Assembly (NCBI GenBank): GCA_964016885.1
Contig: OZ024743.1
Span: forward strand, 203,050,001 to 203,114,000
Reading direction: 5' to 3'
Origin: Eledone cirrhosa
Taxonomy: Eukaryota
Length of the DNA stretch: 64,000 bases
The notes beneath the pieces were generated by a model that was not told the origin of the DNA, ran no database searches, and worked only from the letters and a program-made list of their open reading frames with translations. Position 1 is the stretch's first letter. Each line of letters starts with the position of its first letter. The translations under genes and the position numbers were made by a program. Below are positions 17,961-62,245 of this stretch, piece by piece.

Positions 17961-18092
17961 ATATATATATATATATATATATATATATATATATATATTA
18001 ACGAAGGAGTTGTGGTAAGGAACCAGATGGACCATATCGCACCAGAGTACTCAATACTTAGGGTAGTAGAGTGGGTAATAGGAGAAAGTATG

Positions 18093-18191
18093 ACCCCGAC
18101 GGCAGAGCTCAAGCCGTTTCGACGGCTATTTCTGGACTAAAGTAAGAGTTTTTTTAGTCTGATAAATAAATAGCCGAACTTTTCAAGGGGT
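18093..18191 (-). ncRNA. Hammerhead ribozyme, U3-A8 core
   Basis: acccc TTGAAAA g-tt-cggctattt…aaatagccg-t-c GAAAC ggc(ttgagctct)gcc GTC ggggt. Confidence 0.8.
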
Positions 18192-18835
18192 ACTTTCTTA
18201 TATGGGAAGATTGTAGTTGTCAAGAGGTTTGGTCAAAATCTGTAGCAGACACAGTAGCTACACATATGTAGCCTCAGTACCCCCACCCCAGTAACTTACA
18301 GATAGTATTCGCCGATTAGCCTATACTAACTATTCATAGCAGTTGTGTTAGACCCCAGAGATGTGGTATTAATTTTTAATTCTAAATTTTCAATAATTCT
18401 CATCTAGCAACTCATTCTATAGCTTTGGTCGATATAGCAGCACCAACTAAATATAGCAGCTGTGTTAGACTCCTTAGTTTTTCTCTTATTTCACTTCTCA
18501 CTTTCCAATCTTACATTCTGATACATTTTTCTCTCATTTTTTATTATATTCTTTTTTATTATATTTTTTCTTTGTCCCCTAATCGCATTTGATTTACTAT
18601 TTCTATAACGTCTTCCACTATCTAAAGAAACCTTTTTCCGCCAATCTCCTCTGGCCTACTTTGATACACATTCCTTAGAATTTGCCGTGTAGATTTCACC
18701 TTCTACGCTTGACAGGCTCTACCCACTCCCCTTTCGTTCTACAGGCAAGTTTAGCCATCCCCACCCCGCACCCACTGCTATGATAGAATTTTGACCAATC
18801 CTCTTGACAACTACAATCTTCCCATATAAGGAAGT

Positions 18836-18935
18836 ACCCCTTGAAAAGTTCGGCTATTTCTTTACCAGACTAAAAAAAACTCTTACTTTAGTCCAGAAAT
18901 AGCCGTCGAAATGGCTTGAGCTCTGCCGTCGGGGT
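18836..18935 (+). ncRNA. Hammerhead ribozyme, U3-A8 core (inverted partner)
   Basis: Same fold as 18093-18191; GAAAT instead of GAAAC (U.G wobble). Confidence 0.75.
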
Positions 18936-18958
18936 CATACTTTCTCCTATATATATAT

Positions 18959-20035
18959 AGAAGTAGTTCCACAACAGTTAGTTCACCATACCAAGAACAA
19001 ATGTTTTACCTTAAGTGGAGCGGATCTTCAGCTCGGTCTAAGTGAAGGAAAAACGACCGTATGTATAGGCATGCGCAGAAACGGTCACTTCACCTGTAAG
19101 GTGTAAGGGAGATAACTGCAAATGTCCAGACTAAATTATTCAAGTTGATCAGAATATTAGAATGTTGATGTTATTCAATCTGGAGCTTTGTAATTATGCA
19201 AGAGGTGTTTGCAGACGTGTAGACAATGTGAGAAAAGCTCATTTCTTGAATTTAGGCAATCGTTATTGCGTTAACTTCTCAGGATATTGATCCTTTCTTC
19301 AATGCACAGTCCACAAGACGGATTACCCATTGCGTATGCCTTGGACTTAGTGATAGCTTTCCATTGCATGGAGTAGTCTACGCCTGAGTCTTTGAGGGAC
19401 CATACGTGGCTCACGAGTTTCGTGGACGATCGTTTGTCCAGGTATCTAAAAGTCGACTGATGATTCAGGAAGCGTTCCTTAAACCGGCCCTCTGCCAAAC
19501 CTACATAGAATTTAAACTCTTGTTGATTTGGTCGGTTTGAAGTAACCACAGCTTCATAAATTACAGCAGGTGTGTAAGGTATGAGAACCAGATATTTTGT
19601 CTATGGCTAAGATTTATTTTCTTATTGTTGTTGGTGTTAGTGATGGGGGTAATTGGTTCCGAGAAGCCGCTGTTAGCTAACGCCGTGTTGTAGTAGGATA
19701 CCGCTCTGTCAAAGATTGATTTATTAGAGGAGAGGTTAGAAATTCTAGTACCGATATTATTCACGAAATTTCTAAAAACTGTAGGAGAGTGGCATAAATC
19801 CTTGTGTATGTAATTAAGTTTTTTATTTAGTTTATGGAAGGGTATGAAGGTGTGTGTGCGGAGGTCTACATTTATGTCTAATCTACGCTAGTGGGGTTGG
19901 TAGCTACCGTCATCCTGTGTCCTAACTCATTAAAAGTAGAAATTAACTCTTTTTAAAACCGTTTGAGGTGGTAACCACTTTTGTGACTCGATAGGGTCAG
20001 ACCACCGTCGCGGTATAATCCCGTCTATGTGGAAT
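18959..20035 (-). mobile_element. PLE family B, 5'-truncated (RT C-terminus, GIY-YIG, degenerate HHR 18991-19036)
   Basis: GLYRDGGL; FYVGLAEGRFKERFLNHQSTF…CGLCIEER; homologous to 34870-36253. Confidence 0.9.
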
Positions 20036-59277: not shown

Positions 59278-59619
59278 AGATGGCTGCAAACTCTGGTAAG
59301 AGTACTACAATTGCTTGGAGGATTATAGAGTTTGGTACACTTTTAGGCTACGGCCAGCCACACAAACCTGTAACATATCCTGAACAAGCCATGCCTGTGC
59401 TTTGAAGGTTTTTAAGTGGGTAAAGGCCTTGCACTCCACCAGTCCCACTCTCTGAGCATCGAAAACACTACCTCAAAAGGATAATAGGTCAAGATCATCG
59501 GATGCTTCCGAAGCCGCAGGTTTTGTTTTTCAGTTCCCCTCTCCTAGAAAGGTGTCGTGACAACAACTGGGGCCTTTCACTCCCAGGTGGAAAAAAAAGT
59601 ACTATTTGGATGGCCGTTG
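59278..59619 (-). mobile_element. Dispersed repeat resembling an RTE-clade 5' region
   Basis: ctgggagtgaa…ctaggagaggggaact…aaacctgc…gctcagagagtggg; relative at 62540-62810; lies within (CATA)n. Confidence 0.55.
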
Positions 59620-61740
59620 ACATACATACATACATACATACATACATACATACATACATACATACATACATACATTCTCGCTACTACTGTGTAAAATGTA
59701 GCGGACTAACTTTACCATAATGCGACTGATTTTAAAAGCATGTCAATACAGAATTATTACAGACATAACAGTCTTTTGAAAGGGTACGTATCTTGTAATA
59801 ATAGATACGGACGAAATGTATTTTGACTGTCAAGCCGTTACATTTACTTCTGGTAAAAAGGTTTTCAGACAAGGAAATGGTATTTTTAATTTAATTTAAT
59901 TCAATTTTAATTTAATGTGAAAGGGAAAAGTCGTTTTGTTGACAAGGAAACTTATATTGTTCTGTTAATGCGAGAAATTCTTCGACAAAAGGGTCTTCAA
60001 GAAGAGAAAGTCGAATGCTGTTGATATGAAGCCCATGTATTTCTTGGTATAACTTCCAGGCATAATGATTTCATATTTTAAGAGGTATGTAAAATGTTGT
60101 GTGAATGAGACCTTGGTTGCTATGTTTAGCTACTAGAGTGACAATGTAATTATTTCCTGCTTGGCTTAAGGTACTTAGTCGTATACTTGGGCAATTTCTT
60201 TTTCCGCTGTCTCAGAGAGAAAGATTGGAATGCTACATAGAGCATTCAACTTAGACTTTTCACTCTAAAGCTTTGTATTGGCTATACGTGTTAAAAAGAT
60301 AAGGTGTGATATTGAGATATTAATACATTTGTTATATTAATAGAGTTGATTATGTGTCCAAATGTTATAAGAGGTCAGATTTGGCTTTTATCCTTTCGTG
60401 TTCAATAAGTAAACTACCGCTCCTGTGCATTGGATTGGCAGAATTGGTGGACATTCGGTCTAGATATCCCTGCAGTAAGTGTGCCAGTTCTTTGCATTTT
60501 GACAGTACCTCCTGACCCGACATTTGTGCCAAGCTGTATCAATTTAGTACGGAGGAATATTGCGGAATACCATTAAGTGGCATCACTTTGTCGTTTTCTC
60601 CAGTTAAAAATGTTACAGACGCACCCCTTTCATCTCTAACAAATGTACAAATAAAGATCAAGTCAAATATTCTTTTCTCAGTTTTTCAGCTGATTTATTT
60701 TGATTGATAAAACACTTTCAGATTAGTGTTGACCCTAACACTTACCCTAACCCTATCCCTAAACCTACACTTAACTTTAATTTGATTGAAATATAATCCA
60801 GACTACCGAATTTTCCTTTAGTTGGTTGGAACAACATATGTTCGAATAATGAGGCAGTAATCGAGAAATGGTTGGATAACATGCTTCAAACGATATCATC
60901 TTTTAATTTCCTCCGTTCGAGACCAATAAAAAAAGAAAAAGGATCAGTACTGCAACCGACGCTCTCTCTCTTTCTCTCTCTCAGTATATTCCTTCTCTCT
61001 CACTCATTCTCTCTCTCCAGTCGAAAATGTCTACGTTCAGTCAGACCCGGAGAGAGTTGGGCTCCGCCAAATTCAAATGCCCGATACACGCTACCAGACT
61101 ATCTGGACATTCAGGCTAAAACCAAACTAGAAAGGAACTTCGAAGAAACAACAGAGGGAAATAATTTCATTGTTCAACAATGAAATAAGATTCTATCACT
61201 AATATATATGGATAATTAATGGGTTCCAGAAAAAAATGCCATTTTAAGTTTAAGAGATTATTTAAATGGCAGTTAATAAATATCACTGTCACAAAATCAA
61301 AATGGCCGAAATATATTTAGATTAAGATTTAAAGCTATCAATTTTAACATGAAATCAATATTAAAATGATATCCATTAAACCAGCTATTTTGAATGTAAA
61401 TCTGATGGATTTTCTATTTCAAATACGGAACAAATTGATATGAAAAAAGAAATAAAATAGCGCTTATTGTATTTTTTGACAAACAATTGTTTCGAATAAA
61501 TTTTCTAAATGGTTTGTACGTGCTGGAATCATTAAGGTTTAAATGGAGAAAATAACACGTTTTTATTATAACATTCCTGTAGATAAGAGAAGGAAATTGT
61601 AATTTATAAAGTGGAAACAAAGTAAACACAGACCGATATTATATATCAAATTAATTAAAACCCTAATCACTAAGTCAAGCCAAACTTTCAGCGCACTGAG
61701 ACTATTGGTGGTATTAAAATATCTTCTGCTCTCTCACATT

Positions 61741-61840
61741 CTCTCTCTCTCTCTCTCTCTCTCTCTCTCTCTCTCTCTCTCTCTCTCTCTCTCTCTCTCT
61801 CTCTCTCTCTCTCCCTCTCTCTCTCTCTCTCTCTCTCTCT
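61741..61840. repeat. (CT)n microsatellite
   Basis: Direct inspection. Confidence 0.95.
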
Positions 61841-62034
61841 GATTCTCTTACACTCTAACTCTTTCTCTCTCTCTTCCTCTCGCATGCTCAAAGCTATATA
61901 CTCATACACACACATTGAAATAGATATAAATATATATAATAGACATACATGATTTATACACATATATATTCGTATGCGGCCATGTATATATATATATATA
62001 TATATATATATATATATATATATATATATATATA

Positions 62035-62245
62035 TATGAAAAGATTCAGGACAACGACGGTTGAAGTCCGGCCGTTTCGACAGCTATATTCGAACGCATA
62101 CATGTTCGGACATAGCTATCGAAACGGCCGGAGGTCAGCCGTCGGAGCCTGAATCTTTTCATATTACTCACTCTACTTCCTCAAGTATCGAGTACTCTAG
62201 TGAATTATGGTCAACCCTGTTATTTTACCACACCCTATCTGTTAT
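62035..62245. mobile_element. PLE family A-related fold-back mini-insert
   Basis: Inverted arms with GAAAC ggc…gcc GTC; right arm with an 80-bp tail; (AT)n on both sides. Confidence 0.85.

What the first reader, a model, noticed from the sequence alone, without database searches (positions are those of the whole stretch)
18000..62245. Stereotyped asymmetric inverted ends: the short arm stops at the TA just before the tail hairpin
Seen: in repeated independent inserts one arm carries the 65-85 nt tail, while the inverted arm ends at a fixed internal TA 4-12 nt upstream of the ACTC hairpin and merges into (AT)n. Family A ends at …cctat in 18950, 33430 and 49049. The A-related family ends at …ttcatat in 33457 and 62035. 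Family B ends at …cttcta in 18959 and 36253. Family D ends at …catctatat in 56757. The Naiad-like element ends at …ttttcta in 52807. Family E ends at …gtgat in 33596. The 5' breakpoints vary widely. Inference: integration uses two distinct priming positions on the element, one per target strand, and the hairpin may define the second.
Basis: partly seen in the sequence, partly recalled or inferred. Interest (0 to 1): 0.75.

Follow-up and report, generated by a model that had tools for sequence, protein, structure and literature searches.

The report
One-tailed mirror-image Penelope retrotransposon insertions
These mirror-image insertions of Penelope-type jumping genes almost always carry one end with a 66-80-base tail and one without, which likely means that the two cut strands of the host DNA start copying the element's RNA at two different fixed points, the inner one lying just before a conserved hairpin that may position the enzyme; the one-sided tail is already described, but the strictness of the pairing and the hairpin make the insertion mechanism testable.

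Summary
The inserts are head-to-head Penelope-like elements (PLEs) in (AT)n. Families A, B and D are Hydra-clade; the "Naiad-like" one is Neptune-type. In loci chosen blind to end type, 161 of 167 pairs with two classifiable ends have one tailed and one untailed arm. Junctions differ between inserts (75 of 79 distinct), both arms come from one source (53 of 55 share a haplotype), and either arm can reach further 5'. This fits two primings, one per target strand, at two fixed RNA sites. A four-pair stem (RYUC/GARY) starts 4-17 nt after the short end in 13 of 26 tail groups; shuffles give 0.55. Corrections: D has two short ends, one without a TA; the Neptune tail lacks the stem; 5' ends cluster at a probable start of transcription. 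The one-sided tail (PMC8557442) and two start sites in vitro (PMC11167929) are published. This scan reached the same twin-priming model earlier on other genomes. New here: other clades, longer tails, the conserved stem. The stem's role is untested.

The parts
18001..18239 (-). Family A (Hydra-type PLE) tailed arm; tail is about 18001-18080
18788..18950 (+). Family A untailed arm ending CC|TATA; the 548 nt between the arms were not assigned to either arm
18958..20035 (-). Family B untailed arm with endonuclease remnant; no tailed partner found
33208..33301 (.). Family B mini-insert: untailed arm 33208-33239 (-) and tail-only arm 33236-33301 (+); the arms do not overlap
33314..33430 (.). Family A insert: tailed arm 33314-33411 (-) and a 17-nt untailed arm; the apex CCCC|GGGG lies at the predicted hammerhead cut
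33455..33583 (.). Family A2 insert: untailed arm 33455-33508 (-) and tail-only arm 33505-33583 (+)
33596..33732 (.). Family E insert (clade not assigned): untailed arm about 33598-33621 (-), tailed arm 33622-33732 (+)
34566..36254 (.). Family B insert: tailed arm 34566-34747 (-); untailed arm about 34930-36254 (+) carrying thumb and GIY-YIG remnant (35047-35934)
45868..46006 (.). Family D insert: tail-only arm 45868-45943 (-) and untailed arm 45944-46006 (+) of the inner-end type
49049..49242 (.). Family A insert: untailed arm 49049-49108 (-), tailed arm 49108-49242 (+)
49171..49194 (+). ACTC...GAGT stem-loop of the family A tail, 8 nt after the start of the TA at which untailed arms end
   Evidence: sequence; spacing
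52802..56501 (.). Neptune-type insert: untailed arm from 52808 (-) with broken RT (55027-55668) and C-terminal GIY-YIG (54135-54491); tailed arm about 55706-56501 (+)
56571..56758 (.). Family D (Hydra-type) insert: tailed arm 56571-56699 (-), untailed arm 56703-56758 (+); both stop at the probable transcription start and carry a CTGATGA hammerhead core
62034..62242 (.). Family A2 insert: untailed arm 62034-62095 (-), tailed arm 62104-62242 (+)

Best explanation
These are head-to-head insertions of Hydra-clade and Neptune-type Penelope-like elements in (AT)n, with one tailed and one untailed arm, likely made when the two nicked target strands each prime reverse transcription at a different fixed site on RNA from one source element. 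Shown: two fixed end points per family, near-strict one-of-each pairing, independent junctions, a shared source for both arms, either arm the longer. Inferred steps: (1) the GIY-YIG domain nicks both strands of (AT)n; (2) one 3' end primes at the distal edge of the tail and the other at its proximal edge, usually helped by a 2-4 nt TA/AT match; (3) in Hydra-type elements a bulged stem-loop closed by RYUC/GARY, 6-9 nt inside the tail, is the probable binding site that sets the inner start; (4) both cDNAs run towards the RNA's 5' end, probably on the same RNA by strand displacement, and short inserts are run-offs at the transcription start; (5) the two cDNA ends are joined through microhomology or short insertions and filled in. 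Which site fires first is not resolved.
For: End-blind pairs: 161 tailed+untailed, 2 tailed+tailed, 4 untailed+untailed, and 23 with an unclassifiable end, of 190; p about 1e-40 for 161 of 167 against 0.5. Tail-selected pairs: 70 of 73. The untailed arm reaches further 5' in about half of the resolved long inserts: B 6 against 7, N 7 against 6, A 5 against 3, with 11 of 19 long A inserts unresolved. In 12 of 241 pairs the tailed arm holds little or nothing but tail, so the arms barely overlap and neither can be a copy of the other. 9 of 18 apparently single tailed A arms next to an AT run begin with a stub of the exact short end; the same letters follow 69 of 10,303 AT runs in the fixed blocks. 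Arms share a haplotype in 53 of 55 informative A pairs, against a shuffled mean of 14 and maximum of 25. The short end lies 10-36 nt downstream of the predicted hammerhead cut, so it is not a ribozyme end (read from the motif). The stem is found in 13 of 26 tail groups as ACTC/GAGT (5), GCTC/GAGC (6) or GTTC/GAAC (2), 10 of them starting 6-9 nt after the short end; shuffled mean 0.55, maximum 4 of 500 shuffles; reverse complements 1; later offsets 1. In vitro, a Poseidon PLE cuts and extends both target strands and starts at two internal sites that bound the tail (PMC11167929).
Against: All evidence here is genomic end-product; no RNA or biochemistry was seen. In PMC11167929 the start sites did not differ between the two strands in vitro, and priming needed no homology, so strict pairing is not reproduced there. 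True exceptions exist: two untailed+untailed Neptune inserts (L029, L155), one borderline D insert (L276) and one tailed+tailed A insert (L010). The stem pattern was widened after I had seen, so its significance is partly post hoc; 13 of 26 groups and the Neptune tail lack it, and the groups may share ancestry. The inner D site has no TA. Uneven arms can also arise by later deletion at a palindrome's centre (general knowledge, not tested). One A pair (L428) has arms of different haplotype.
Confidence: 0.7

Rival explanations
1. One priming only: the tailed cDNA folds back and is copied into a hairpin, the copy is stopped or cut at the tail boundary and joined to the other target end, and later central deletions make the arms uneven. 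This is close to the published self-priming (PMC3846280) and endonuclease-resolution (PMC8557442) suggestions.
For: It explains shared haplotypes (53 of 55) and near-perfect apices in short inserts, and it gives strict pairing without coordination between two primings.
Against: It needs one-sided deletions of up to kilobases in about half of long B and N inserts, and removal of nearly the whole tailed arm in 12 of 241 pairs. Both tail boundaries are start sites on RNA in vitro (PMC11167929).
Confidence: 0.15
2. Dual priming on two separate RNA molecules held by an asymmetric protein dimer, rather than one RNA used twice.
For: The Poseidon protein is predicted to be a dimer (PMC11167929). One A pair has discordant arms (L428). 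Most arms overlap in sequence, which on one RNA needs strand displacement.
Against: Discordance is rare (1 of 98 A, 0 of 12 B, 0 of 11 E pairs) although six A haplotypes are common. This rival survives if only one source is expressed per cell.
Confidence: 0.1
3. The inserts are copies of a few pre-formed asymmetric masters moved as a unit.
For: A few junction strings recur (up to 3 times in A, twice in D).
Against: 75 of 79 A and 39 of 41 D junction strings are distinct, with 38 and 23 different lengths; the asymmetry recurs in every haplotype and in many families.
Confidence: 0.02
4. Ends are chosen independently and symmetric inserts are lost afterwards because palindromes are unstable.
For: Long perfect palindromes are unstable (general knowledge).
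Against: An untailed+untailed insert has the same inverted-repeat length as a mixed one, yet is rare (4 of 167), and the rule holds when kilobases separate the ends.
Confidence: 0.03

Closest known systems
Inverted pLTR plus tail of endonuclease-bearing PLEs (PMC8557442 Fig. 2 legend; PMC3846280)
   Same: [quoted passage not shown]
   Different: Published tails are 30-40 bp; here 66-80 nt in the six families and up to about 118 in others. In the passages I saw the one-sidedness is qualitative and is ascribed to endonuclease resolution or self-priming; here it is counted (161 of 167).
Poseidon element of Anolis in vitro (PMC11167929)
   Same: Two internal start sites bounding the tail; both target strands cut and extended; starts near the pLTR-ORF junction; hammerhead cut not needed.
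   Different: No strand difference and no homology to the cut DNA there. Here the sites are used one per strand, and most lie on TA/AT words that match the target. The stem-loop there is AC-rich and contains a start site; here the stem lies 6-9 nt 3' of the inner site.
Hydra clade of PLEs (PMC8557442, section read whole)
   Same: C-terminal EN with CxCx5C linker, CxxC and CxH around E and N, DKT, no CCHH, hammerheads, (TA)n targets (families A, B, D).
   Different: The section describes no tail, tail hairpin or end pairing for this clade.
LINE-1 twin priming (PMC2837659, abstract start only; mechanism otherwise recalled)
   Same: Both target strands prime on the element RNA and give an inversion.
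   Different: In L1 the second site is variable and the two pieces do not overlap (recalled). Here the second site is fixed and the pieces usually overlap.

Membership tests
Hydra-clade PLE (families A, B, D) | Single ORF with RT followed by a C-terminal GIY-YIG endonuclease | tested here: met
   Long copies L194 (A), L187 (B), L392 and L394 (D); copies are broken by stops or frameshifts
Hydra-clade PLE (families A, B, D) | DKG modified to DKT | tested here: met
   SDKT in B and D; not seen in the A fragments read
Hydra-clade PLE (families A, B, D) | CxCx5C linker, CxxC and CxH around E and N, no CCHH | tested here: met
   A CNCPDRSSC, CNLC..E, CKH; D CNCLNKEAC, CDLC..E, CMH; B CGLC..E, CPH with a degenerate linker
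Hydra-clade PLE (families A, B, D) | Hammerhead motif in the pLTR | tested here: met
   Cores CTGAAGA (B), CTGATGA (D) and variant TTGAAAA (A) by pattern; Rfam listed no hammerhead among the 150 of 176 rows shown; activity not tested
Hydra-clade PLE (families A, B, D) | Placement in an RT phylogeny with reference Hydra elements | not tested
   No reference sequences were fetched
Naiad (element at 52808-56501) | N-terminal endonuclease; DKA motif | tested here: not met
   EN follows RT; relatives show DKG
Neptune/Nematis-type PLE (element at 52808-56501) | C-terminal EN with CX2-5CxxC linker and CCHH | tested here: met
   CGRSNCGTC linker, CKGC and two histidines in L195, L200, L209; Neptune versus Nematis not separated by phylogeny
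Any PLE clade (families E, A2) | Own RT/EN reading frame | tested here: inconclusive
   No linked ORF in the loci held; A2 resembles A in DNA; E shares the tail stem
EN+ PLE inverted-tail insertion | Tail on one end of a head-to-head unit | tested here: met
EN+ PLE inverted-tail insertion | Tail length 30-40 bp | tested here: not met
   66-80 nt in the six families
EN+ PLE inverted-tail insertion | Target-site duplication | tested here: inconclusive
   Unreadable inside (AT)n; 5 of 211 inserts gave a candidate paralogous empty site, some doubtful

The most novel reading that the evidence does not exclude
Penelope-like integration is an obligatorily asymmetric twin-primed reaction on one RNA, and in Hydra-type elements a conserved bulged stem-loop closed by RYUC/GARY is the cis element that holds the reverse transcriptase and measures off the inner priming site 6-9 nt upstream. 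It would be a positioning element for the retroelement group closest to telomerase.
Probability: 0.4. Interest if true: 0.72.

Novelty: new variant of a known kind. Interest (0 to 1): 0.5.

Why it matters
How PLEs form their inverted ends and tails is named as an open question in PMC8557442, and the later steps are unvalidated in PMC11167929. A near-strict one-of-each rule in two further clades constrains any model: the two start sites are not used independently in the genome, unlike in the published in vitro assay. The conserved stem offers a four-base-pair target for mutation and compensatory rescue in an assay that already exists. The elements are also abundant: 26,972 exact matches to a 23-nt family A motif and 16,194 to a 26-nt family D motif.

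Tried and rejected
(1) Family D seemed to have C on the tailed arm and T on the untailed arm at one site in 9 of 14 pairs. Rejected as a search artefact: genome-wide the C form has 150 matches, most of the listed ones in one tandem array, against 16,194 for T, and my query carried C plus the tail. (2) Order of priming from single arms: 30 tailed against 7 untailed in the fixed blocks fell to 15 against 12 once detectability was equalised (p 0.7). No order is claimed. (3) Tailed arms stopping at the short end (8 of 12 non-overlapping pairs) would favour one RNA, but family A shows no excess over the next window upstream; suggestive only. (4) Short end as hammerhead cut: rejected by distance. 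(5) Empty sites: 5 of 211 candidates; contigs of four public runs showed none. (6) No RNA holder listed. (7) AT-run length at the two ends did not differ clearly (medians 27 and 24, p 0.08). (8) Rfam gave only weak matches below gathering score in the rows shown. (9) A 64-nt family D query found nothing. (10) A direct genome-wide count of pair types was not obtained; pair counts rest on samples. (11) The first family-blind scan was noisy with internal AT runs and satellites and was replaced.
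Full report
What was checked. A masked self-comparison of the window shows head-to-head arms for nine of them and two more pairs. The window lies in a 3.0-Gb assembly, G000. I fetched 800 kb in fixed blocks from seven chromosomes-scale contigs, including the window's neighbours, loci from DNA and pattern searches, and extensions around listed hits: 445 loci in all.

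What the elements are. Long copies give the proteins. Families A, B and D have RT followed by a GIY-YIG domain with the Hydra-clade marks listed in PMC8557442 (section read whole): DKT in B and D, a CxCx5C linker in A and D, CxxC and CxH motifs, no CCHH. The element at 52808-56501 has RT (Pfam RVT_1, E 2.6e-7) upstream of a weak GIY-YIG match (E 0.01, below cut-off). Its relatives show DKG, a CX4CxxC linker and CCHH. It is Neptune-type, not a Naiad. E and A2 have no linked reading frame in the loci held. No phylogeny was built.

Two fixed ends. Arms end at two sites per family. In A, 171 of 197 arms with a called AT run end at reference 158-160 or 238-239, out of 21 TA words; B has 50 of 64 and N 57 of 70 at two positions. 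The modal short ends are CC|TATA (A), TTC|ATAT (A2), CTTC|TATA (B), TCTT|TATA (N) and GTG|ATAT (E), each on a TA or AT word of the tailed template. D has two short ends about 11 nt apart, and the inner one has only a single T in common with the target. The tailed end is internal too: in full-length B and D copies the tail continues into the element body through TAT or TA, in D about 45 nt ahead of a likely start codon. The short end is 10-36 nt downstream of the predicted hammerhead cut in A, B and D (read from the motifs).

Pairing. After removing duplicates, pairs were split by how they were found. End-blind: 161 tailed+untailed, 2 tailed+tailed, 4 untailed+untailed and 23 with an unclassifiable end, of 190. 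Tail-selected: 70 of 73 mixed. Window: 10 of 10. On inspection, one tailed+tailed case is the 5' pLTR inside a full-length copy whose outer ends are mixed (L187), the other is two arms separated by unrelated sequence (L391), and one untailed+untailed case has a tail with a deletion (L368). I kept them in the count. Real exceptions are L029 and L155 (N), L010 (A) and the borderline L276 (D). End classes used wide windows, and several 'other' ends are tails with deletions or diverged relatives.

Independence and source. Junction strings are distinct in 75 of 79 short A inserts and 39 of 41 short D inserts; point changes add to this, but lengths alone give 38 and 23 classes. Both arms carry the same common haplotype in 53 of 55 informative A pairs (shuffled mean 14, maximum 25), and four pairs share a haplotype seen nowhere else. 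A systematic search flagged 1 of 98 A, 0 of 12 B, 4 of 18 N, 1 of 45 D and 0 of 11 E pairs as discordant. The N flags fall largely in an A/T-run alignment, and the D case is two unrelated insertions. An apparent arm-specific allele in D was an artefact of my query.

Two copying events. The untailed arm reaches further 5' about as often as the tailed one in long inserts: B 6 against 7, N 7 against 6, A 5 against 3, with 11 long A inserts unresolved. In 12 of 241 mixed pairs the tailed arm is little more than tail. Nine of 18 apparently single tailed A arms start with a stub of the exact short end. A fold-back copy of the tailed cDNA cannot be longer than its template, so the one-priming model needs frequent one-sided deletions. 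The order of the two primings could not be read from single arms.

The hairpin. A family-blind scan for asymmetric inserts between AT runs gave 245 segments. Those with tails of 36 nt or more fell into 26 sequence groups. Thirteen have a perfectly paired four-base stem, ACTC/GAGT, GCTC/GAGC or GTTC/GAAC, starting 4-17 nt after the short end, 10 of them at 6-9 nt. Dinucleotide shuffles give 0.55 groups on average and at most 4. The pattern was widened after I had seen the data, the groups may be related, some of the 26 may not be PLEs, and the minimum-energy fold recovers the stem in only some of them. The Neptune tail has ACTC without a partner. The stem is therefore a real conserved feature of many tails; its role in setting the start site is inferred from position alone.

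5' ends. They cluster. Both arms stop within reference 96-108 in 56 of 111 A pairs, with peaks at 99 and 102-103, and at the first six reference positions in 36 of 56 D pairs. In both families a TATA-like word begins about 30 nt upstream (TATTTAT in A, TATAAATA in D), and A's peak falls in TTAGTC, which resembles an initiator (consensus recalled). Short inserts are thus probably run-off copies from priming near the RNA's 5' end. No RNA run was available to test this.

What is known. PMC8557442 (passages) states that a 30-40 bp tail is often present at only one end, and suggests endonuclease-mediated resolution. PMC3846280 (passages) describes the optional tail and proposes self-priming. PMC11167929 (parts 1-2 of 4, covering the main text; supplement text searched without hits; its supplementary figures not seen) shows two internal start sites bounding the tail and extension of both strands, with no difference between strands. 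A 2026 preprint on retrozymes (passages) and PMC8969392 (passages) add nothing on pairing. Six paper searches turned up no count of end pairing and no tail stem for Hydra elements; Arkhipova 2006 was not read. Earlier notes of this scan reach the same twin-priming model for short-tailed elements in other genomes; I had formed the reading before seeing them, and they are not independent support.

Verdict. The feature is real and belongs to a known kind. Twin priming at two fixed sites is the best model (0.7). What this finding adds is the extension to Hydra- and Neptune-type elements, tails twice the published length, a counted pairing rule, and a conserved stem that can be mutated. Interest 0.5.

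Noticed in passing
G000:C28 from about 30.50 Mb to at least 30.69 Mb: A tandem array of family D ends, all on one strand and mostly 1-12 kb apart; 62 are listed and most of the 50 unlisted matches may belong to it.
   Followed up: no
window 18180-18186 (-) and 56329-56335 (+): Families A and N both have the hammerhead core TTGAAAA instead of CTGANGA, a double change at positions 3 and 8 that could still pair. In A the core lies upstream of the probable transcription start.
   Followed up: partly
window 33394-33427: Both arms of this family A insert meet at the predicted hammerhead cut; only a handful of A arms stop near there.
   Followed up: partly
L069 1069-2233; L250 606-633; L209 8-35: Repeated short units with a CTGATGA hammerhead core like that of family D, at 310-nt multiples; possibly retrozyme-like.
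   Followed up: no
L081-L090: A satellite array gave about 350 hits to a short stretch of one reference and many false asymmetric segments.
   Followed up: no
window 292-3209 and 37260-42447: Two broken copies of a LINE-like element with endonuclease and RT remnants, 69-83% alike.
   Followed up: no
window 44184-44651 and 49579-50250: A mariner-like transposase remnant and a LINE-type RT tail remnant (labels recalled from the translations).
   Followed up: no
window 48734-48879: A 46-nt inverted repeat on either side of an (AT)n run, arranged tail-to-tail rather than head-to-head.
   Followed up: no
window 50749-50987 and 51445-51683: A 239-nt direct repeat at 99% identity, related to the ends at 56770-57088 and 57508-57700; probably another PLE-type family.
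   Followed up: no
L394 699-2489; L363; L375: Long open frames of family D (up to 597 residues) show that this family is young.
   Followed up: partly
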